Source: the human T2T-CHM13v2.0 reference genome, Homo sapiens
DNA: 64,000 bases
Strand: one strand, 5' to 3'
Assembly (NCBI RefSeq): GCF_009914755.1
Contig: NC_060929.1
Shown: positions 2,585-14,289 of the stretch, piece after piece
Numbering within the stretch: position 1 is the stretch's first letter
How the letters are laid out: each line of letters starts with the position of its first letter
Notes under the pieces: generated by a model
What the model saw: the letters and a program-made list of their open reading frames with translations, nothing else
What the model was told of the DNA's origin: nothing
Database searches by the model: none
Translations under genes and position numbers: made by a program

Positions 2585-3171
2585 GTTGGTTTTATAAAAT
2601 GATAATACAGAGACTGGGCAACCCTCCGCACACCCGGACCAGGCTGCTCAGTTTTAGTGAGATGGTGGATTTTCATGCTAATTCCTTCTCTTATCTCTGT
2701 CTTCCTTTATCAGTACTAATGATTCTGCATTGTGATTACTTCTAGAGGGTGGCATATATGATAATGAGGAAAAAATCTGATTCCATTCTCTTCCCTTGTC
2801 TCCCTAATACAAATAATTTAAGTGGTCATAAAATTGTTTGGAAGAATTGCATTCTTGGGGTGAATTCATAGCACCAAGCCTTTGGACTCTACTTTATTTA
2901 TTGTTACTTAAACATCTCCTTGGTTCCATTTTAAGTTAGAAAAATGTATCTGTGTGGGAGTAAAAAGATTTCCTTTTTAAAATCATTTCAGATATCACCA
3001 TACTTGATTGGGAACTCCATGTAGATACCTTGAATATTAAAGTACTTCTTTCTACTGCTTTCAAGATAGCAGCACAGCCATCACTAAGTTAAAGCTTATT
3101 TTAAAAGCTGGGGTTACCTGAGGTTTATTGTCCTTTTCTTCTTTTGAAATTCTTCTGTGTGAAACTTACAG

Positions 3172-3303
3172 GTTCAGGCATTCTTTGAAAATCAGTCAGA
3201 GGCAACCTTCCGGCTTCGTTGTGTCCAGGAGGCTTTGGAAGTCATTCAGTTGAATATCCAGTGGATGGAGAAGAACCTCAAAAGTCTCACATGGTGGCTG
3301 TAG
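3172..3303 (+). CDS. LNPEP: LNPEP last coding exon, coding part ending at TAG
   Basis: Acceptor ttacag|G at 3171/3172. Translates VQAFFENQSEATFRLRCVQEALEVIQLNIQWMEKNLKSLTWWL*, the known IRAP C-terminus; stop TAG 3301-3303. Confidence 0.97.
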   Translation, partial: VQAFFENQSEATFRLRCVQEALEVIQLNIQWMEKNLKSLTWWL

Positions 3304-5368
3304 CATGCACAACCGCACCTCATTTTGTTGCCCATTCAGAGAGCTTGTAAGCTTGGGCTCTGCCGCTTTTGCAAAAGCCAAGGTAAAGCCAGGATCGCTG
3401 CCAAGTTGTTTGCACTCTTTGGAGTTCTAGTTAGCTCAGGGCCTGACTGTATTTTTCATCCATCTTTTCTGAAGTGTCTTTGGGCAGTATGTAGTTATTT
3501 ATTACAAAATTATATTCACGTAAATGCCAACCATCTACAAAAACAATGAGTAATTTTTCTACTTTGAAGATACACAGATGGGGACAAAAACCCTGTTTTG
3601 GAATTCTGTTCTATTCCTCAGTATCCAGAAAGTTACTGACACAGTAAAACAAGGAAAGTTCTACCCTAAGAGCCGCCATCACTTCAGGCCGCTGGTTTGT
3701 CAGCCATCTGTTGCTTCTTATTGATAGATGGCATTGGAATGTGGTACAAAGTTAGCTCTGAAGAATATGGTAACGAAGACAATAAAGCATGCACTGTAAG
3801 AACTGACCTCAGGTGTGCAGATCTACTTTGATTTGGGGTTTTGATTAATTCTTTATTTTTCTGAAAAAAAGTTTAAATAATGTCTGTAACTATTGTGTTT
3901 TTTTCCTGCCGAATAGCCAGGTGCTACAGATTTTTAAAATTTTTGTTGTATTGAAAAGCTAAACAAGGCCAAAAGGTTAAATTTTTTGAATATTTAAGAC
4001 TTTCTTTTTCATCTTTTATAGCGTTACCATAGGAAACTGTTCCAAACTGAGTTAGCTTTAATTATAATTATTTTATTCATAAATGGTGATAGTCCCCAGA
4101 TCTGTACACCTTTATCACTCCCTGCCGTAGATATACTTTAGGTTAGTATTTCTACATTCGTGGCAAGCATTTTGGTAACACCAGTGGTTTTCATTGTGAC
4201 TTTTATCACTATCACTAAGAATGCAATTTAAGTTGCCTTTTGGCATCATAGATCATAGAAACTTTCTCTCTGAATCATACCCATGTGTGAATTTTCATTT
4301 TATATGATAGTGTAGCATATTAGAAGCATATTTTAAAACAGAGCCTTTGAGAAATTGAAAAACAATTATTTGAAGTTCACCATAGTACCTTAAAGGAACA
4401 AAGAGAATGTGGGATAGGAGTAACTTGAATTCGTGTTTAGTATGGTGGGCTTTGAATTTTTTTCACTATCAAAAATAGTGCTTTTGTTTAGTTAAAAATT
4501 GTAGTTTTTCTTTTTTTGTGTGTCCAAACTAACATAAAAGGAGTGGTCAAAGAAGGAAAGAAGAAAAATGAGGGAGGATGTCCGAAACTGTATGGCATTT
4601 TACTCCTTCTGAAAGAGAAATACTGTACTTGAATTTTTGAGCTATGCAGACTTATACCTAGATTGTTGTGTTTCTTTGATTCTTAGGAGAAAAGCTTTCT
4701 TCCTAATAATTCTTGAGAACTTTATATTTTGTTTGAAAACAGTTTCTATGTACATAAAAAGGGTATTTACCCATTTGTGAGCACTTAAAACACTCCACAG
4801 AGTCAGACAGTGGGAAAGGTCACCCTTTTTTTATTCGGCAGGTATCAAGTTAGAATGTATGGAATTGTGAATAAAATTATATTTTATTTTATGAAAATAT
4901 TTTTATATAATAAAATTTAAAAGGCTGGTAAGCTAAAAAAATAGTCTTCTTTAATCCTAGTGTGTTTTCCCCAATTTAGTCTTTTCTAAAATTTATCTGT
5001 TTTAGAGTAGAAAATATTATATCCTGAGAATCACAGAATCATCTAAATATGTCTTATTCAACTGAAGTGATTGTAAGTCTTTATTCTTGTGCTTTGGTTA
5101 AATGAATGATAATTTAGTTGATAGTGAAAGTTAATGTGTTTTTATATTTTTAGAGTGAGGGAAAAATACTAAACTTTTGAGAGTTTTGTTGTCGTTGCTG
5201 GTTTTTTACCATGTGGTACTAAATTCCACTTTGATACAAAATTTAAATTTTGTAACTTCTCAAAATCACTTAAGATTCTTCAGTTTTACCTGTGCTTCTT
5301 GACATCGCTCCTATAATGTATGTTAGTTAACTCTGCATATGGCAAATCTTGTCTTGAATTATATCATT

Positions 5369-5375
5369 TCTCTCC

Positions 5376-5433
<58 letters not shown>
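5369..5433. repeat. Compound (CT)n(GT)n microsatellite in the 3' UTR
   Basis: CT run directly followed by ~20 GT units. Confidence 0.95.
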
Positions 5434-5435
<2 letters not shown>

Positions 5436-6371
5436 TGTGGGGGGTATTGTTATGAGTAAAACTTTATCAAAACTTGGCCTGAAAAAGAGATAACTCATGA
5501 TCCATTGCTATCTTTATTACTCAAAGGCTGTTCATTCCCATAATACCAGATCCATAATAGTTGTAGTTTTTTTGATGTTGTTGCCCTTACCTTAATTATT
5601 TGTAGTTTTAGTAGGCCTTGCCTCAGTTTTTCCCACAGAATTCCATAATTTTAATGTTGAACTAACCCATCTATATAGGACTTCTAAAAACTACGTCAGG
5701 AATGTAAGGTTAAATGAGAGGTAGAACTTGTAGTGTAATAGGTATAATGGTAGCTTTCAAAGTTTTATCTTCTCAAAACATTGTCTTAGCCAGTGTATTT
5801 CTGAGAACTCAGACTGAAGCACAGAAGTCACAGTATGCTTCTTTTATTTAAGCACACAGATTCATGACACAAGTACTTGTTGAACAAGTGTTCTCATTGC
5901 AGAGAGATCTACTTGAATATAAAAGGGTCATCATACTAGATTATTAAAAAGAATTGGAAATCTTGAGTTGTGGAAGAAATGTTTATGCTTTGGAGATCTA
6001 AAAAAGTTATGAATGTAGGAATTAGATAAGTCCAGTTTGTTCTGTTAATATAAAATGGTTAGATATATTAAACTGCAAGTAGTATCAGCTTCACCATAAG
6101 CTTGGGCCTTCCTCCATCTTGTTTTATTTAAGTCTCTTTAAATGAAATTTTGTTGTCATTGTTTCAGCATTCATGAACTTTCTTACTATCACAGGTTCTA
6201 CTTTAATTTTCCTTGCCATATGTGTTTCCATTTTGTGGGACATTAGCCACCACAGGAACACAAGAGTTGTCAGAAGACTCCTGGGTGTACAGAGCAAATC
6301 AAGCTGCATCAGTATTATAGGATACCAAACAGAATCCTTTCTATTAGGAAATAAGAAATCAGTTAAGTGTT

Positions 6372-6670
6372 GGCTGGGCGCGGTGGCTTATGCCTGTAAT
6401 CCCAGCATTTTGGGATGCCAAGGTGGGCAGACCATTTGAGGCCAGGAGTTCTAAACCAGTTTGGCCAACATGGCAAAACCCCATCTCTACTAAAAATATA
6501 AAAATTAGCTGGGCATGGTGGTGCACACCTGTAATCCCAGCTACCTGGGAGGCACGAGAATCACTTGAACCCAGGAGGCGGAGGTTGCAGTGAGCCAAGG
6601 TTGTGCCACTGCACTCCAGCCTGGGTGACAAAGCGAGACTGTCTCAAAAAACAAAAAACAAAAAAAAAAG
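6372..6670 (+). mobile_element. AluS in the LNPEP 3' UTR (sense orientation)
   Basis: Full dimer with A-tail. TSD AGTTAAGTGTT at 6361-6371 and 6671-6681. Confidence 0.93.
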
Positions 6671-7029
6671 AGTTAAGTGTTGATTTTGTTGGATTACTGA
6701 CAGTTTGTTGAGATGGATTTTAAAAAGAGTCTATTTAAACCAAAGTACCTGGAACCATAATCTGCCATCAGATTGCTAAACATTCACATAATCCCCATGT
6801 TTCATGGGGCTTCAGGGAAGGCAAATACATCTGAGATGAGCCACCTCCAAGGACAGCATTTCCTGGGCTGCAAAACTAGATGTGGATTTTGTTACTTAGG
6901 CCTCTCTAAAAACTGAGGCCATGGATATGACATAGCTTTTCTTCTCACCTATGCCTTTGTTACTTTTGTATTTATTGGAATTAAATCTCTTTTTAAAGAG
7001 CTTCCTTCCCCCTTCATCCCATTTGTATT

Positions 7030-10000
7030 TTTAAAAACTAAGTTATATATATATTTGCTTGTTTTTGCATTCTTTTATTTTGTGCTCCATTCCCTGCTTT
7101 GCCAGTTAAGTACTACCTGAAAAGTAGCGGTTCAAAAGTATGGTAAATCTCCTCCCTTAACCTTATTGCCTGTGTGGGTGACAGCTAATGGAAAAGTTGA
7201 TCGATTTTTTTCAGTGGTTTTTTTGGGAGTATATACTTTAAAAATGTACATACATGTTTTTGATAGTTTTTATATTATTTCATTTTGTATATTTTTTTCC
7301 TGATGAAGAGTGATATATCATCCTATGAAAATTTCATCTACCCTTCCCATTTTACCTGTATGGGCAGTAGCTACAGACTAGTTATTTGGTTTCCTTCTTT
7401 GGAAGAAGGTGGTGATGTTGAGAGGAGAGCAAGCTATATTCTTTTAAAAGTGTGTACAGATGTTTTTGCTATTTTGTGTTATTTCATTTTGTATTTCATT
7501 CATCCATTTTGTGGACGTGTAGATAAAACGCGGTGGTCCAAAAGCATGACAGATGTCCCCTTTGCGTTTCTCCTTATTGTTCGCATGGACAATAACTGAC
7601 AGAGTAGTCCTAGTTGCTGTTGTTTTGATCTAGTCTTGGGGCTGGGGTTGTATATTATTCTTTCAAGTGTGTATAAATATTGTGCCACCTTTTTATACTT
7701 CATTTTATACTTGTTTCCTTGTATGGATGCATATATACTTAATGAAAATTGAGGTTCAGAGTATGACAAATCTCTTTTCCCTTTTCCTTACTGCCTATTT
7801 AGGCAATAGCTAATAGAGTAGTTTGTTTTGTTTTGGGGTGTGGGGGAGAGTGGAGTATGTACTTAATGTATATAAATAAACTTGCTACTACATTGTATTA
7901 CTAATTTGGTTCACACTGTGTCCTTCTCATGGATGTGAAAGTACCAATGAAATGTGGAGATCTCGATGTATAACAGTCTCCCATTCTCCTCATCCCTTAT
8001 TGACTGCTGGGCAGTAGCTAACAGAGTAGTTGTCAAGTGGCGTATTTGAGGTGAGGGGGAGGGACGGGGAAGGTAGGAAAATGCACTTAATGTATATACA
8101 TGTTTTTACTACTACATTGTATTAATTCATCGGGTGCCCAGACTGAAAGGTACCTAATGAACCATGGAGTTCCGGATGTATAACAGTCTCCTCTTTTCCC
8201 TTTCCCTTATTGCCCATGTGGGCAATACTTAAGAGTAGTTTGGGTTTATTGAAGATTTTTTGCTAGGAGAGAGAAAATTTTTTGCTAGGAGAGGTTTCAA
8301 GGTAAGAGTATATACTTTAAACATGTATATAAATGTTTTTGCTACTTTTCTGTCACTACCTTTCTTACCTTGTCCTTTACATGGATATATGAAGAAAATT
8401 GAGGTTCAGCCTGTAGCAGCTCTCCTCTTCTGCCCTTCCCTTAGATTGTCTGTGTGGGCAGGTGTCTAAGAGAGTAGTTGATTAGCTTCAGGGATTCTTT
8501 GGTGGGTGTTGGGGTATATACTTTTGTATATGTATGTACATATTTTTATTTCTTTATTATAGTGTTTCATTGGGTACCCGGTCCTTCACTTGGATGTGTA
8601 GGTTCCTAATGAGCCATGGAGTTATGGATGTATAACAATCTGTTCTCCCTTTACCCTTTTAATGTATATGGGCAATAATTTTAAAGTAGTTTGGATTTTT
8701 TTAAGTTTTGAGGGGTGGGAGGGGTCTAAGGCAGAATATATCCTTTTTAAAAATGTATATATACTTTTCATTAACTATATTGTATTATTTCATGCTGTAC
8801 CCAGTCCATTGCTTGGACTTACGGGTACCTAATGAAACGTGGAGGTCCGGATGTATGAAAATCTCCTCTTTTCCCCTTTCCTTATTGCCTCTGTAGGCAA
8901 TAATTATAGAGTAGTATAGATGGTTTTTCTTTTTTATCCATCTGCCTATCTCCAGGAGGATGGGGTGTGCACTTTTAGAAATGTATATAAATGTTCTTGC
9001 TCCTTTTTCCTGTTACTTCATTGTGTGCCAAGGCCTTTCCATGGATACTTAGGTACGTAATGAAAATTGAGGTTCATTCTATGAAAAAATCTCCCCTTCT
9101 CCCCTTCCCTTATTGCCTGTCTTGGCAATGGCCAGTAGAGTAGTTATTTAAGGGATTTTGTTTTTTTGTTTTTTTGTTTTTTTTTTGGTAGGGGAGGTGG
9201 GGAATTTCTGGGTTTGTCTTTTTTTTAATGTATATAAAAGTTTGCTAGTTGTTGTTATTGTTGTTCTTTCACTCTCAACACAGTTTTTTGTTTGGAGTTG
9301 TAGGAATCAAATGTAATGAGGGACCCAGACCCGAGAGTGTGGTAAATATTCTTTGCCTTCCTCAGAGCCTGTATACACAAGCAAGTAGTATGTGAGCACT
9401 ACAGGGCTTGGGTTTTGGTTTTTTGCTTTTGAGGGTTTTAATGAGGAGTGGGATTGTTGAGAGGAAAAGGCAAGATATATAATTTTTTTAATGTATATAA
9501 ATGTTTTGCTCCTTTTTGATGTTAACTTCATTTTGAATCTGGTCCTTTGTATGACCACTTAGGTACTTAATAGTAATAAAGTTGAGATTGACTCTATGAA
9601 AAATATCCCATACTCCCCATCCCTCATTGCCTAGGGGGCAATGGTAGAATAGATGTTTGGTTTCTTTTGGGGGTGTCTGAGTGTATATGTGTGTGTATAT
9701 ACACACAAGAACACACATATTTATATACTATACACACACATTTTAATGTATATAAATATTTGCTACATTCTGTGTGTTATATAATGTGGTACCCAGTCCT
9801 CTGCTGGGACATGGATGTACATAATGAAACATGGAGGTCCAGACGTATGATAACTCTCCTGTTTCCCTTCCCTCATTGCCTACAGGGGCAATAGTTTCAT
9901 ATCTTGGGTTTTTTATTGTTTAATTTTTTTTTATGGGAAGGGGTTCTTTGGGTGGGTAATAGTCAGGGGGAAAGGACAGTGTCTATACTTTTTAAAGATG

Positions 10001-10500
10001 TATATAAATGTTTCATGTTATTGGTTTTGTACCTAGTCCTTTGCATGGATATATAGGTACCTAATGAAAATCGAGGATCAGTGTATGACAAATCTCCCAT
10101 CCTCCCCTTTCCTTATTGCCTGTGTCGGCAATAGGAAGTAGAATAGTTGTGTGTTGTTTACTTACTTGTCTGTTTTAGAGAGATTTCTATTTTTGGTAGG
10201 GGAATATTCTTAATATGTTTTCATATCTTTATTTCATTTTGTAGTCTTTTGCATGGCTATGTAGGGACCTAATGAAAGTCGAGTTTCATAATATGACAGC
10301 TCACTTCTTTTCCTACATATTTCCTCACTTAGCAGTAGCTAGTGTAGTTATTTTGTGGTTATTTTATTTCATTCTCTAGGATCTATTCCATTAAGGATGC
10401 AAGTGTGTAGATGCATATATATCATTTGCTTCTTTCTTCCGCCATTATTTTCCTTTAACACTTAGTCCCTTGCAAGGGGTCTGACTATACCTAACAAAAA
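7030..10500 (+). repeat. Degenerate tandem array of ~15 units (mostly ~200-260 bp) in the LNPEP 3' UTR; typical unit = PRE + hairpins + pyrimidine tract + AGAGTAGTT + U/G-rich spacer
   Basis: Recurring motifs TGTATATAAATG, GTACCTAATGAAA, CCTTATTGCC...GGCAATA and AGAGTAGTT. The last, exact or near-exact, is at 7601, 7815, 8023, 8232, 8471, 8683, 8908 and 9137 (spacing 208-239 bp). Confidence 0.92.
7245..10006 (+). promoter_or_regulatory. Cluster of 13 canonical Pumilio response elements (UGUAHAUA)
   Basis: TGTA[CT]ATA starting at 7245, 7867, 8091, 8324, 8535, 8754, 8982, 9229, 9492, 9694, 9747, 9816 and 9999. Three more in the UTR at 4749, 11805 and 12097. Confidence 0.8.
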
Positions 10501-12254
10501 TAAAGACCTACTAAATCCCTGCCATCTGGCTGGAAGGTGTAGCAGTGTATTAATGTAACTAATAGCAACAGGTGTGCAGCAGATAAGACAGGAGAAGACA
10601 CTCAGCTATGGTTGAGTTGTGAAAGCTAATTAGATCCAGCATTTCTTATGTTGATTCAGATTGAATGAGGTAGTGAAAAGGGACCTGTGCTTTTGTAAAT
10701 TCTAGAAAGGCAAGAGGACAATATTGAATAAAGCTGTGTTTAAACTTCATTGCTCATATATCTTTTAGTAACTGGTAAACCGGCGAAGCTGATAAGCCAA
10801 TAAGAGTGCTGTCTAGAACGCATTTGCAAACCGTTAAGAGTAGCTTCTTTTTGAGGCCTGGACTTCTGATTCATCTATAGAAGTCTATTATGATTCCATC
10901 AATTGCATAGCTTGTGTACCTGGTAGAAATTGTGTCTTGGAATGACCCTTTCGAGTTATTGACATGGCTCTGATGAATAGAACATGAGCCCCAAAACTAA
11001 ATCCAAAAGGAATTTTCTATCTTTCATCCCCCACATGTGGCAAGACAAGTTGGCCCTTTCTTACCCAGAGGTCTTTTGTGTGACTGCATCTTTCTCCTCC
11101 GTTCTCCATTGTGTGCTTTCCATTTTGTCTTTAGTGCCTATACTGTTAGGTGTTTTCTTCACTGGCATTCACAAATTTAAGCCATTGCTGCCTCATTAGC
11201 CTTGTATTTTGTGTGCATATCATATATCCAGACCTGTATGTTCGCTTTAAGCATTCTTATATCACACTGTCTCCTCATCTACCATATGGTAAATGTTAAA
11301 ACTCCACATTTGTCTGCATCAGGGAAAATGCATGGGCACACATCCTCCCTCCCTCCCTCTCTGCTCTCCTCCCTTCCTTCAGGCCTCTTAGCATTGTTTG
11401 TTTTCCCATTTCTGATACTACTACTCCATGCTGAAGATTTGCCATATTACTATTTTGGAAACATTGAGTGATAGAACTCCTAGAAAATTTGCAAAGAAAT
11501 GTTACATACTGTATATCAAACTCTCAGATTCTAGTGTTGAAAAAGTAGCCTATACTTTGCTATTACTTATACCTGCTGCCATAGAAAAAAATAAGTTTAT
11601 TCATGACACATTTACATTTGATCATAAATAAAAGAAAAAAGGGCACCTTTTTGGAGTTAGTCATGGTAGTCATTAGTGATATTTCTGAACAGTTCTTAAT
11701 TTAAAATACTTCAAAGGAAGTAAAGGTCATGGCTTAGCTGAAGGAAATGCTCCAGAAATTGGACTGTGTAAACCATCAGTACAATAATACGCTGTGTATG
11801 TATGTGTATATAAAATGAGAATTATGGCATAATTGGAGCATTTGCATTAATCAACAAACTCACATTGAGACAAAACTTAGTTTTACAGCTGTCTTGATTA
11901 AAGCCAAGTGTTCCATGTTGCTGTGAAGAATAGCCTCTTTCAAATACTTTGGAAAGTAGTTACTTGGAAACTTGTAAAGGTATTACATTTTTATATTTAA
12001 ACACCTATAGAGATCTTCAATTCCTTGAGTCTGAGCTTGTGGGTGGAATTCTAAATTTGTATCATAATCTGTCTTTTGTGAAACATTTTGAAAATATGTA
12101 TATATAATATTGTATATGCAAATTGTGTTGTTTCACTTGTAAAGGGAAAAGGCTTATTTTTCTTTATATTTCTGATAACTTGTTTTGCATATGACCAGCA
12201 CTGACTGAAAGGCATGTGTAGCTGCAAACACTGTTGCTTTTTTTGTGAAATGAA

Positions 12255-12260
12255 AATAAA
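12255..12260 (+). terminator. Probable distal polyadenylation signal of LNPEP
   Basis: AATAAA with upstream U-rich and UGUA elements and downstream TTGTGTGG. TE-derived sequence (MER20) starts shortly after. Confidence 0.7.
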
Positions 12261-12420
12261 AGTATTTAAATACAAACATTGTGTGGACTCTTTGGATTAA
12301 TGTATATATAAAGTGGTATCTCTTCTTAGGTTATGACCTCTACCAGGGCAGCTCCTGTACTCATTGTCTTCTGTGGTTAGTTTTTTATTTCACCAGTATC
12401 CAGTGTCTTTATTGCATATA

Positions 12421-12620
12421 CCTCAGTTGACATTTGACATTCGGAGGTGGCTAATTCTTTGTTGTGGGGGCTGTTCTGTGTATCATAGGACATTTAGCAG
12501 GATCCCTCCCATGCCAATTGCAACTAGTTGCCAATAGTAACTCTTGTCCCCAGCTGTGACAACTAAAACCTCTCCTCCAGACATTGCCAAATGTCCCCTG
12601 AGGTTAGGGTTAAAACTTTG
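12421..12620 (-). mobile_element. MER20 (hAT-Charlie MITE)
   Basis: ccagacattgccaaatgtcccctg and gctgtgacaact match the reverse complement of the MER20 consensus as I recall it. Confidence 0.75.
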
Positions 12621-14289
12621 AGTGGATGCATAGGGCGGATAGCTAACAGTCACGGGAGCTCCATCAGGACCATTATTTACTTTTTGGACTAAAGCAGTTC
12701 TTGTAAACACTCAGGTCACCTAAGTAGCCAACTGATGCAGTAGTCATACAGTACCTAAATCAGTGTGAGAAATGTCATACGTGTCGTATGCCAGTGAAAC
12801 CAAGGAACACTGTCTTACTTTGAAGGTGAGACATTGGATGTTATCAGGGAAATACCCCTTGCGTTGATTCACATATAAGTAGGAGTATGAGTGCACCTTT
12901 TTAGAGGCACACTGCCACGGTTACATTCCTGGTCAGGTCTACAAAAGGAGTTTCTTGGTTCTGTCTGCATGAGTAGCCTTGAGGAAGAACTGAGAATTTC
13001 TTAGGCTTCCAGATATATGAACTAGAATAAGTATTCTTTTACAGTAATTGTTAGGTGGGCGTTTGAAGGCAAAGTAAGTCTTAACTCCCATACCCAAAAT
13101 CCTATTTCTGAGGACACAAAACCTTGATGCATGCCCTTTTAAAATCTCTTATAATGATCATTACTAATATATAGGGGAAATGTTCTTAAAATTGTGAAGT
13201 TTTGATCAAAAGCTTCTGGTTAAATTTTTTGTGCTTTTTAATTCACAGATACCAGCAGTAAACAATTGAACTAAAACCCATTATAAATGTAAAGAACACT
13301 TTGATTCTGATAGACTTTTTGGATGGAGAGTAACAATAACCTATTTTTCTAAATTATTTTTAGAACCCATGGTACAGAAGAATGATTCAGTTGTATCTTC
13401 TTTTTGCTTCTTCTGTTCTTACATAAAGCCCCCCGACCCCCCACCGCCAACACACACACAAAGGCTCTGGTGTTTACTAAAACTTGTGTGCAAGTTGAAC
13501 AGTTGACTTACATGCTTAAAGAGGTGGTTTTCTGCTAGAGGGCAAAAACATACTTTTAAGTCGTTAATTTCACCCACCTACTAGATCCATAATTGATATG
13601 TTCCCAATGCTCTGTGCTTGTTTACTTTTATCATTTCTCTTCATGGATGACCTCCATTCAACTGGCCAAAGTCCAGTTGAATTGAAATGCACTTTGGGTA
13701 CCCCTGTAATTTCTGTTGTTGGCTGAGCTGAATAATCAGGACCTTGGCTTACACAGAATAAGTTTGATTCTTGCTTTCCTATTCCCATTTGTGTTTATAA
13801 AAGAAGAACCTAATGTGATAATAAAATAGCAGTCATCAGAGTTGAACTGTTGACCAGCAGGCAGCACCAGGAGGTAATAGTTTGAAAGGAAGTCAGGGAA
13901 CATACCAGAGGCCACTTCAGCATAGGAAAGACAATTTAGGGCTGTCAGTGTGTTGCTTATTAAAGTGTCATTTGTGTACAAACCAAATGTGGGAAATTGA
14001 AAGTTCTTTTGTTCAGCAGTTTCTGATGCTGTTGCTCTTCTATGTGAATGCAGCTGAAAAGATCTTTGGGTCCTACATGCAGGATTGAACATGGGCTGCC
14101 CTATGGGTTTAGTGGCTGTTTATGTCTTCATTTTTTTTCCTCAAAGACCTCTGTAATTTTTAACTTCAGCAAAATTATTGGAATATTACTATTATCACAT
14201 AACAAAAGGTAACAATTTCAAGAAATTTAAATACTTGAAAGGCTATTAGGCTGGTATCAGTCAGAACTAGAATTGATTTCTGGTTCAAT

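What the first reader, a model, noticed from the sequence alone, without database searches (positions are those of the whole stretch)
7574..10133. Repeated TATTGCC/GGCAATA hairpin shows compensatory substitutions between units
Seen: TTATTGCCT-ctgt-AGGCAATAA (8882-8903, 9 bp); TATTGCCC-atgt-GGGCAATA (8208-8227); TTATTGTTC-gcat-GGACAATAA (7574-7595, C-G to U-A); CATTGCC...GGCAATG (9625-9643, U-A to C-G); TATTGCC-tgtctt-GGCAATG (9111-9130, G-U); TATTGCC-tgtgtc-GGCAATA (10114-10133); TGCCT-attt-AGGCA (7792-7805). Loops vary freely while pairing is mostly preserved. Inference: selection on RNA secondary structure rather than neutral repeat decay, possibly for a stem-loop-binding partner.
Basis: partly seen in the sequence, partly recalled or inferred. 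Interest (0 to 1): 0.75.

Follow-up and report, generated by a model that had tools for sequence, protein, structure and literature searches.

The report
Repeated hairpin in LNPEP 3'UTR array
The repeated small hairpin is real, but it is one inherited part of an old, unannotated 16-unit tandem repeat in the LNPEP 3'UTR that also carries a Pumilio-binding motif in most units, and the claimed compensatory changes are no more than chance would give.

Summary
All 7 claimed hairpins are at the stated coordinates. They are not independent. Each sits at the same position of a diverged ~225-nt unit repeated about 16 times head to tail on the sense strand of the LNPEP 3'UTR, window 7030-10480. Tandem Repeats Finder misses the array.

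The arms are as conserved as the best block of the unit: column identity 0.84 and 0.73, against 0.62 for the loop and 0.63 for the unit. The canonical stem is the minimum-energy fold in 8 of 15 units.

Compensatory evolution is not supported:
- 81.5% of cells pair, against 82.0% in shuffles, with 1 double change against 1.2 expected.
- A model-fitted alignment gives the same result.
- G-U and A-C mismatches number 9 and 7.
- RNAalifold predicts 0 pairs.

Eleven of 16 units begin with a Pumilio response element. The array holds 14 UGUANAUA where 0.63 are expected. Tandem units of Pumilio element plus hairpins are the published architecture of the lncRNA NORAD.

A roughly 20-nt block is shared with NORAD units. 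Profile-level p is about 0.002-0.007, but nhmmer and BLAST are not significant.

No paper in the library links LNPEP with Pumilio or NORAD.

The parts
7030..10480 (+). Diverged tandem array of about 16 units of 200-260 nt. It lies wholly inside the annotated LNPEP 3'UTR exon (3172-12276, sense strand). Unit starts: 7030, 7236, 7441, 7660, 7859, 8083, 8314, 8522, 8744, 8973, 9220, 9483, 9739, 9990, 10205, 10404 (partial).
   Evidence: Iterated nhmmer gives 16 + strand hits with E from 4.8e-50 to 0.0042, spanning 7044 to 10478. Alignment A1 has mean column identity 56%. Pairwise identity has median 59% and range 45-79%. TRF does not report the array. BLAST of two units against the whole genome finds only the array itself.
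7574..7595 (+). Hairpin, unit 7441. It has 9 bp and carries the one core pair changed on both sides (C-G to U-A).
   Evidence: MFE -7.4 kcal/mol, z -3.42. In-context pair probability 0.57.
7792..7805 (+). Hairpin, unit 7660. It has 5 bp; a C/A mismatch lies below the stem.
   Evidence: z -1.33. In-context pair probability 0.11.
8208..8227 (+). Hairpin, unit 8083, 8 bp.
   Evidence: MFE -11.5 kcal/mol, z -3.33. Pair probability 0.93.
8882..8903 (+). Hairpin, unit 8744, 9 bp.
   Evidence: MFE -9.8 kcal/mol, z -4.64. Pair probability 0.88.
9111..9130 (+). Hairpin, unit 8973, 7 bp including one G-U.
   Evidence: z -1.67. Pair probability 0.56.
9625..9643 (+). Hairpin, unit 9483, 7 bp plus further pairs. 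The base pair is C-G instead of U-A.
   Evidence: z -1.50. Pair probability 0.93.
9875..9892 (+). Hairpin, unit 9739, 6 bp. A C/A mismatch lies at the base.
   Evidence: z -1.66. Pair probability 0.52.
10114..10133 (+). Hairpin, unit 9990, 7 bp, extended by UUCCU/AGGAA.
   Evidence: MFE -13.3 kcal/mol, z -4.30. Pair probability 0.92.
7159..7190 (+). An example of the 7 units where the stem is shifted or lost. The homologous windows are 7159-7190, 7345-7375, 7993-8023, 8437-8471, 8653-8683, 9358-9390 and 10317-10344.
   Evidence: The local minimum-energy folds lack the canonical stem. z values are 0.16, 0.08, 0.22, -2.93 (a different stem), -0.01, 0.08 and -2.35 (a different stem).
7867..7874 (+). 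Pumilio response element at the head of a unit. In-phase copies start at 7245, 7867, 8091, 8324, 8535, 8754, 8982, 9229, 9492, 9747 and 9999, which is 11 of 16 units. Out-of-phase copies start at 7518, 9694 and 9816.
   Evidence: TGTANATA occurs 38 times in the window against 9.94 expected, with 0 of 100 shuffles as high. The array holds 14 on the + strand against 0.63 expected from base composition. Column identity of the block is 0.83.
8787..8818 (+). Second, longer inverted repeat of the unit (GUACC.AGUCC ... GGAY ... GGUAC), just upstream of UAAUGAAA. Other clear copies include 10029-10060.
   Evidence: Alignment A1, columns 62-93. 73.2% of cells pair against 73.5% in shuffles, so there is no covariation signal; slid controls give 21-44%. 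It appears in the unit folds.
9085..9111 (+). C/U-rich tract directly 5' of the hairpin (example from unit 8973). It is predicted to pair with the G-rich spacer at 9187-9203, enclosing the hairpin.
   Evidence: In the minimum-energy fold of whole units, at least 6 bases of this tract pair with the downstream G-rich spacer in 11 of 15 units. This is a prediction only, and the sequence is of low complexity.
7751..7770 (+). Block GAGGUUCAGAGUAUGACAAA; a second copy lies at 10073-10092. It is the stretch most like NORAD repeat units.
   Evidence: A degenerate pattern fitted to both loci gives 20 matches in the genome: these 2, and 18 at the chr20 NORAD-like locus and its look-alike copies. The reversed-pattern control gives 2. 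Pairwise BLAST gives E 3.6.

Best explanation
The TATTGCC/GGCAATA hairpin is one inherited module of an ancient tandem repeat in the sense strand of the LNPEP 3'UTR. A unit of about 225 nt was duplicated to about 16 copies.

Read 5' to 3', the unit carries:
- a Pumilio response element (UGUAUAUA);
- a U-rich stretch;
- a long inverted repeat;
- UAAUGAAA;
- GAGGUU..GUAUGACAAA;
- a C/U-rich tract;
- the AUUGCC/GGCAAU hairpin;
- UAGAGUAGUU;
- a U/G-rich spacer.

The stems recur because the ancestral unit had the palindrome and both arms have been kept as sequence, to the same degree as the Pumilio element. They do not recur because the arms co-evolved.

The following part is inferred and not shown. 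The array works as a multivalent protein-binding platform on the LNPEP mRNA, in the manner of NORAD. Pumilio proteins would bind the 11-14 elements. The short hairpin forms in about half the units, probably at the tip of a C/U-tract:G-tract helix. It would serve either as a spacing and presentation element for the neighbouring single-stranded motifs or as a site for a partner that is not yet known.
For: Array and phase:
- nhmmer and alignment place every hairpin at the same unit column.
- The covariance model of the module finds 15 of 15 units and nothing else in 64 kb below E 0.02.

Block-wise conservation:
- Pumilio element 0.83, 5' arm 0.84, 3' arm 0.73, loop 0.62, unit 0.63.
- Overall pairwise identity is only 59% at the median, with K2P median 0.59. 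The blocks are therefore kept against a decayed background.

Folding:
- The canonical stem is the minimum-energy fold in 8 of 15 units, with z from -1.3 to -4.6.
- In-context pair probability is 0.52-0.93 in 7 of those 8.

Pumilio elements:
- 14 lie on the + strand of the array against 0.63 expected, and 11 of 16 units have one in phase.

Published parallel (passages read):
- NORAD has 12 units of about 300 nt with one or two Pumilio elements, a 4-bp hairpin, a U-rich stretch, an 8-9 bp hairpin and an A/G-rich stretch.
- Its authors suggest the hairpins position the binding sites, and report that no protein specific for the hairpins has been found.

I re-derived that architecture from the chr20 locus.
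Against: - No binding, expression or probing data were available here, so the platform function is inferred from motifs alone.
- No orthologues could be examined. Conservation is judged only among paralogous units, and gene conversion or uneven mutation could mimic block-wise constraint.
- Seven of 15 units have lost or shifted the stem, and 5 of 16 lack the in-phase Pumilio element.
- RNAalifold gives no consensus structure.
- The C/U:G pairing is low-complexity complementarity that forms easily by chance.
- Published Pumilio target tables lie in supplements that I could not open. Whether LNPEP is a bound or regulated target is unknown to me.
Confidence: 0.55

Rival explanations
1. The stem-loop is under selection as RNA structure, is kept by compensatory substitutions, and is the site of a specific stem-loop-binding protein.
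For: - The arms are more conserved than the loop: 0.84 and 0.73 against 0.62.
- In the unit at 7441, all four stem changes are compatible with pairing, one pair having changed on both sides.
- Stems form with high probability in context.
- Joint intactness of the two arms is in the expected direction: table 5/2/2/6, p 0.10.
Against: - Paired cells and double changes do not exceed shuffles on either alignment.
- G-U and A-C cells number 9 and 7 of 90.
- RNAalifold predicts 0 pairs.
- The C at the base of the 9625 stem is shared with unit 9739, where it has stayed unpaired opposite A.
- No Rfam family matches.
- Loop length (3-6 nt) and loop sequence are not kept, which argues against a loop-reading protein.
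Confidence: 0.2
2. The array is a neutral relic. It is an old segmental duplication with no present function. The palindrome and the UGUAUAUA word are leftovers of the founder unit that happen to have decayed more slowly.
For: - No covariation is seen.
- Half the stems are degraded.
- Units are only 45-79% identical.
- No functional element is annotated there in the hub's gene table.
Against: - With median K2P 0.59 between units, an unconstrained 8-mer should rarely survive. Yet 10 exact UGUAUAUA and 6 exact ATTGCC..GGCAAT copies remain in the array.
- Conservation is block-wise rather than even.
Confidence: 0.17
3. The element acts at the DNA level. The palindrome would be a repeated binding site for a dimeric DNA-binding protein inside the last exon, and the RNA hairpin is a by-product.
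For: - The inverted repeat reads the same on both strands.
- The absence of a G-U over A-C excess (9 against 7) is what a DNA-level constraint predicts.
- The two arms are conserved as sequence.
Against: - The spacer between the half-sites varies from 3 to 6 nt among units, which is unusual for a dimeric site.
- The rest of the unit is strand-specific RNA-type sequence: a sense-strand Pumilio element and a C/U tract.
- No regulatory element is annotated in 7030-10480 in the hub's table.
- From recall, the half-sites and spacing do not fit the palindromes of the RFX or NFI families. This was not tested.
Confidence: 0.05

Closest known systems
NORAD repeat units (NRUs) of the lncRNA NORAD. Sources: Tichon et al. 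2016, PMC4947167; Tichon et al. 2018, PMC5828396 (passages read).
   Same: - Both are tandem arrays of diverged units, 12 x ~300 nt in NORAD and ~16 x ~225 nt here.
- In both, a Pumilio element sits at a fixed place in most units.
- Both have short conserved hairpins with variable loops, U-rich and purine-rich stretches, and two alternating unit subtypes.
- The order Pumilio element, hairpin, GAGGUU..GUAUGACAAA, AGUAGAGU is shared.
- Pumilio element density is 14 in 3.45 kb here against 15 in the 6.5 kb fetched around the chr20 locus.
   Different: - The array lies in the 3'UTR of a protein-coding mRNA, not in a lncRNA.
- The AUUGCC/GGCAAU hairpin and its C/U tract have no NORAD counterpart. 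In the best profile alignment they fall in a 44-column insertion.
- NORAD's 4-bp GGAC/GUCC hairpin is not evident here.
- Standard homology searches are not significant: nhmmer best E 2.9 and 0.53, BLAST E 3.6.
PLCXD1, the one other human gene named for Pumilio element number in Tichon et al. 2016 (passage).
   Same: Both transcripts have an unusual number of Pumilio elements: 18 UGURUAUA in PLCXD1, and 15 in the LNPEP 3'UTR with overlapping copies included.
   Different: According to the paper, the PLCXD1 elements lie mostly in transposable elements. Here they sit in phase in a single-locus tandem array with no other genomic copy.
Defined stem-loop protein sites: the histone 3' stem-loop, Roquin constitutive decay element and Smaug recognition element. 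Their features are recalled from memory.
   Same: Each is a short 3'UTR hairpin of 5-9 bp.
   Different: Those elements are defined by loop size or sequence. Here the loops are 3-6 nt and not conserved. No Rfam family, the histone stem-loop among them, matched at E up to 1.

Membership tests
NORAD repeat unit (NRU) family | Tandem array of diverged units of a few hundred nucleotides in one cytoplasmic transcript | tested here: met
   About 16 units of 200-260 nt lie inside the annotated 3'UTR exon. That the transcript is cytoplasmic was not tested.
NORAD repeat unit (NRU) family | One or two Pumilio response elements (UGURUAUA) at a fixed place in most units | tested here: met
   11 of 16 units have an in-phase UGUANAUA, and 9 of these are UGUAUAUA. 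The enrichment is 14 against 0.63 expected.
NORAD repeat unit (NRU) family | Short 4-bp hairpin after the Pumilio element, then a U-rich stretch, then an 8-9 bp hairpin | tested here: inconclusive
   A U-rich stretch and two inverted repeats are present, one of 6-9 bp and one of about 11 bp. The GGAC/GUCC short hairpin is not evident. The hairpin in question lies downstream of the block shared with NORAD, not upstream as in NORAD.
NORAD repeat unit (NRU) family | Detectable sequence homology to NRUs | tested here: inconclusive
   - nhmmer is not significant in either direction (E 2.9; E 0.53 outside the array and E 11 inside it).
- BLAST gives E 3.6.
- My own profile-profile alignment with the Pumilio element removed scores 10.35 against 6.6+-0.85. 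It is reached by 2 of 1000 column shuffles and 7 of 1000 block shuffles.
- The NORAD core profile ranks array bins 2nd and 4th of 512.
- The reverse scan ranks the best NORAD bin 55th of 1600.
NORAD repeat unit (NRU) family | Binding of PUM1/PUM2 and relief or mediation of Pumilio repression | not testable with these tools
   No CLIP or expression data were available.
Structure-selected RNA element (covariation-supported hairpin) | Base pairs kept through changes on both sides more often than column composition predicts | tested here: not met
   There is 1 double change against 1.2 and 1.5 in shuffles. Paired cells are 81.5% against 82.0%, and 81.1% against 81.8%. With only 15 paralogues, power is low.
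Structure-selected RNA element (covariation-supported hairpin) | Sense-strand signature: G-U tolerated, A-C avoided | tested here: not met
   In the 6 core pairs x 15 units: 65 Watson-Crick, 9 G-U, 7 A-C and 9 other cells of 90.
Any Rfam family | Match to a curated covariance model | tested here: not met
   Window 3000-12500 gave 9 matches at E up to 1, none reaching its gathering score and none on the hairpin. They are Alu/SRP-like at 6373-6644 and TG/CA-rich miRNA-like at 9661-9751.

The most novel reading that the evidence does not exclude
The LNPEP 3'UTR array and the NORAD repeat units descend from one ancestral array of Pumilio-binding units. One route would be NORAD, a single-exon gene, arising from a 5'-truncated retrocopy of an ancestral LNPEP mRNA; the reverse direction is also possible.

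On this reading the AUUGCC hairpin with its C/U tract is an LNPEP-lineage insertion into the shared unit. LNPEP mRNA would then be a second natural Pumilio platform, the only one sitting on a coding mRNA.
Probability: 0.2. Interest if true: 0.85.

Novelty: new variant of a known kind. Interest (0 to 1): 0.55.

Why it matters
NORAD is treated as a singular case: a transcript built of repeated units that gather many Pumilio proteins, with conserved hairpins whose role is still open. If the LNPEP 3'UTR is a second such array, it gives an independent natural example on which to test what the hairpins and spacing do.

It also predicts that LNPEP (insulin-regulated aminopeptidase) is either under unusually strong Pumilio control or buffers Pumilio activity.

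For the scan, the case is a caution. Hairpins repeated inside a tandem array are paralogous copies of one palindrome. A handful of pair-compatible differences among them is what chance gives.

Tried and rejected
- Tandem Repeats Finder on 3000-13000 gave no row with a period near 225, because the array is too diverged.
- RNAalifold on the 15 units predicted 0 pairs.
- The Rfam scan gave nothing on the units.
- A whole-genome search with the covariance model was not possible: the tool does not accept a model for this genome. I used the pattern and DNA modes it offers instead.
- nhmmer of the LNPEP unit model against 200 kb of chr20, and of the NORAD unit model against the window, gave nothing significant.
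- Pairwise BLAST of the array against the NORAD locus gave a best non-low-complexity hit of E 0.026, in a T-rich stretch that is not collinear. The shared block scored E 3.6.
- Profile-against-sequence scans with cheap long gaps had a high background of 22-26 and were hard to read. I repeated them with the Pumilio element removed and stiffer gaps.
- The second inverted repeat of the unit was tested for covariation and showed none.
- The test for joint loss of the two arms gave p 0.10 and is confounded by unit decay.
Those tables may well bear on whether LNPEP is a known Pumilio target.
- Literature searches: LNPEP+Pumilio returned 2 unrelated papers, LNPEP+PUM2 returned 3 unrelated, LNPEP+UTR+'repeat units' returned 0, LNPEP+NORAD returned 0, and 'NORAD-like'+Pumilio matched 3 papers, of which the 2 listed were unrelated.
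- No orthologous mammalian sequence is reachable with these tools, so no cross-species test was made.
Full report
**1. The observation**

The window is human chr5, and the finding lies in the last exon of LNPEP (3'UTR, + strand, exon 3172-12276 in the hub's table). The core word ATTGCC-N4-8-GGCAAT occurs 6 times in the 64 kb against 0.01 expected, with 0 of 100 shuffles reaching 6.

**2. What the hairpins belong to**

The hairpins are spaced about 200-260 nt apart because they sit in a tandem repeat.

- A profile built from 8 hand-anchored units and iterated with nhmmer finds 16 hits on the + strand from 7044 to 10478, with E from 4.8e-50 to 0.0042.
- Nothing else in the window matches, apart from one weak + strand hit at 6907-6950 (E 0.43) and two weak reverse-strand echoes of the palindromes themselves.
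- Tandem Repeats Finder does not see the array.
- Fifteen full units align with 56% mean column identity (A1).
- Pairwise identity is 45-79% with median 59%. K2P distance has median 0.59 and minimum 0.25.
- From recalled mammalian neutral rates I infer an array age of tens of millions to over 100 million years. This was not tested.
- BLAST of two units against the whole T2T genome finds only the array itself. The other 13 of 18 matches are to a T-rich tail of the query. The array is therefore not an interspersed repeat family.
- The units fall into two subtypes that are each other's nearest neighbours.

**3. Anatomy of the unit** (consensus)

Read 5' to 3', the unit carries:

- AAUGUAUAUAAAUG, which holds a Pumilio response element;
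- a U-rich stretch;
- a longer inverted repeat, GUACC.AGUCC...GGAY...GGUAC;
- UAAUGAAA;
- GAGGUU.CAG.GUAUGACAAA, or GGAGGUCCGGAUGUAUAACA in the other subtype;
- a C/U-rich tract;
- the AUUGCC-loop-GGCAAU hairpin;
- UAGAGUAGUU;
- a U- and G-rich spacer.

Column identity by block is 0.83 for the Pumilio element, 0.84 for the 5' arm, 0.73 for the 3' arm, 0.62 for the loop and 0.63 for the first 200 columns.

**4. Does the hairpin form?**

- With 27-35-nt local windows, the canonical stem is the minimum-energy structure in 8 of 15 units. Their z values against dinucleotide shuffles are -3.42, -1.33, -3.33, -4.64, -1.67, -1.50, -1.66 and -4.30 (my own run, agrees).
- In the other 7 units the stem is shifted or gone.
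- In a sliding-window partition function over the whole array, the 8 stems have mean pair probabilities of 0.57, 0.11, 0.93, 0.88, 0.56, 0.93, 0.52 and 0.92.
- In whole-unit folds, the C/U tract pairs with the downstream G-rich spacer in 11 of 15 units, placing the hairpin at the tip of a larger domain. That complementarity is of low complexity, and I give it no weight beyond a lead.

**5. Is there compensatory evolution?**

- On the MAFFT alignment, 81.5% of the 130 cells of the 9-bp stem pair. Dealing the 3' letters out anew gives 82.0+-1.1%, and 389 of 500 shuffles are at least as high.
- There is 1 cell changed on both sides against 1.3+-1.1 expected, and the covariation score is 0.213 against 0.202.
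- Sliding the partner by 1-3 columns gives 25-48% paired. The register is right, but that is what an inherited palindrome gives.
- On an alignment fitted to the structure by a covariance model, which favours the structure, the numbers are 81.1% against 81.8% (431 of 500) and 1 against 1.5.
- After a hand correction for unit 9483, the 6 core pairs hold 65 Watson-Crick, 9 G-U, 7 A-C and 9 other cells of 90. Selection on the sense RNA should tolerate G-U and remove A-C, and no such bias is seen.
- RNAalifold on all 15 units returns no pair.
- The two arms are intact together slightly more often than expected (5/2/2/6, one-sided p 0.10). However, 3' arm damage tracks overall unit decay (rho 0.67).
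- The second inverted repeat behaves the same way: 73.2% against 73.5%.

- Unit 7441 has four transitions in the stem, all compatible with pairing, including the single true double change. By my reasoning each transition in a Watson-Crick pair keeps pairing half the time. This is therefore not rare for the best of 15 units.
- The C-G at the base of the 9625 stem shares its C with units 9220 and 9739, and in 9739 the C has stayed opposite A.

Both arms are conserved as sequence, and covariation is not shown. With 15 paralogues the test has little power, so structure selection is not excluded either.

**6. The Pumilio elements**

- TGTANATA occurs 38 times in the window on both strands against 9.94+-3.02 expected, with 0 of 100 shuffles as high.
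- Fourteen lie on the + strand in the 3.45-kb array, where base composition predicts 0.63.
- Eleven of 16 units have one in phase at the unit head.
- The whole 3'UTR has 17 UGUANAUA and 15 UGURUAUA, overlapping copies counted.
- Tichon et al. 2016 report 17 non-overlapping UGURUAUA in NORAD and name only PLCXD1 as higher (passage). LNPEP is not mentioned in that text.

**7. Comparison with NORAD**

The published description (passages) is of 12 units of about 300 nt. Each has one or two Pumilio elements, a 4-bp hairpin, a U-rich stretch, an 8-9 bp hairpin and an A/G-rich stretch. Later work says no protein specific for the hairpins has been found, and suggests they position binding sites.

I fetched 200 kb of chr20 where I recalled NORAD to lie. 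On the minus strand at 37,766,000-37,772,500 I found a cluster of 15 Pumilio elements and 12 units with exactly those features. The name rests on that fit and on recall, not on an annotation.

Standard homology tests between the two arrays fail.

- The LNPEP unit model against the 200 kb has best E 2.9. That hit does lie inside the locus on the right strand.
- The NORAD unit model against the window has best E 0.53, outside the array, and E 11 and 46 inside it.
- BLAST scores the shared block at E 3.6.

A profile-profile local alignment that I wrote gives weak positive evidence.

- All units against all units score 10.55 against 7.0+-0.9, reached by 5 of 1000 column shuffles.
- With everything up to and including the Pumilio element removed, the score is 10.35 against 6.6+-0.85. 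It is reached by 2 of 1000 column shuffles and 7 of 1000 four-column block shuffles. With stiffer gaps the counts are 1 and 5 of 1000.
- By subtype, with the Pumilio element removed, the counts are 4, 13, 61 and 429 of 1500.
- That alignment reads GAGGUU(GC)CAGUsUAUGACAAA, then 44 columns present only in LNPEP (the C/U tract, the hairpin and AGCU), then AGUAGAGU.

Tests against real sequence are mixed.

- The NORAD core without its Pumilio element ranks array bins 2nd and 4th of 512 in the window, or 1st, 4th and 9th with cheaper gaps.
- The LNPEP core ranks the best NORAD bin only 55th of 1600 in the chr20 200 kb.
- A degenerate pattern fitted to both loci has 20 matches in the genome: 2 in the array and 18 of the NORAD type, on chr20 and at the look-alike loci. 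The reversed control gives 2. Because I fitted the pattern to both, this shows specificity, not homology.

I rate common descent at about 0.2. The likeness of design does not depend on it.

**8. Reading**

The best-supported account is that the hairpin is an inherited module of an old, apparently constrained repeat unit on the LNPEP mRNA. The unit's other conserved block is a Pumilio element. The array's design is that of NORAD.

- Shown: the array, the phase of the hairpins and Pumilio elements, the block-wise conservation, the predicted folding of half the stems, and the lack of covariation.
- Inferred: Pumilio binding, platform function, and a role of the hairpin in spacing or as a protein site.

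The rivals are a structure-selected protein-binding stem-loop (0.2), a neutral relic (0.17) and a DNA-level palindromic site (0.05).

**9. Novelty**

In the library searched, no paper holds LNPEP together with NORAD (0 papers) or with 'repeat units' and UTR (0). The papers holding LNPEP with Pumilio or PUM2 are unrelated gene lists. Supplementary target tables could not be opened, so LNPEP may already be listed somewhere as a Pumilio target. I file it as a new variant of a known kind. It cannot be filed as a member of the NORAD repeat family, because the homology test is inconclusive.

Noticed in passing
window 7835-7847, 8048-8064, 8711-8735, 9187-9203, 9961-9983: The spacer at the end of most units holds runs of three to five G. 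The unit at 9739 has five such runs in about 60 nt. These could form RNA G-quadruplexes or bind GGG-reading proteins, as an alternative to pairing with the C/U tract.
   Followed up: partly
window 8251-8293: A recent 22-nt tandem duplication (2 copies, 95% match) lies inside the spacer of unit 8083.
   Followed up: no
window 9681-9745: A TG/CA-rich palindromic stretch in the spacer of unit 9483 gives weak hits to miRNA-precursor models mir-297 and mir-3688 (E 0.085-0.37), far below their gathering scores. It looks like a low-complexity artefact.
   Followed up: partly
window 11805-11812 and 12097-12104: Two more exact UGUAUAUA words lie in the 3'UTR downstream of the array, close to the annotated transcript end at 12276. 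A further one lies at 12301, just past it.
   Followed up: no
G000 chr20 37,766,000-37,772,500 (minus strand; loci L015-L016): The NORAD-like units also alternate between two subtypes. One has a double Pumilio element and GAGGUUGCCAGUGUAUGACAAAAG. The other has a single element and GAAGUGC.CRAUGUAUGUUAAAAG. The LNPEP subtype with GAGGUUCAG.GUAUGACAAA matches the first of these specifically.
   Followed up: partly
G000 chr5 25.29 Mb, chr6 26.39 Mb, chrX 79.43 Mb and 9 single-hit loci (L029-L040 and unlisted): Copies of the NORAD-type 22-mer lie outside chr20, several of them in pairs or triplets about 600 nt apart. This fits the NORAD pseudogenes described in print, HCG11 among them.
   Followed up: no
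window 6365-6679: An Alu element (SRP-like Rfam hits, E 5.5e-12 and 2.2e-7) lies in the 3'UTR just upstream of the array.
   Followed up: no
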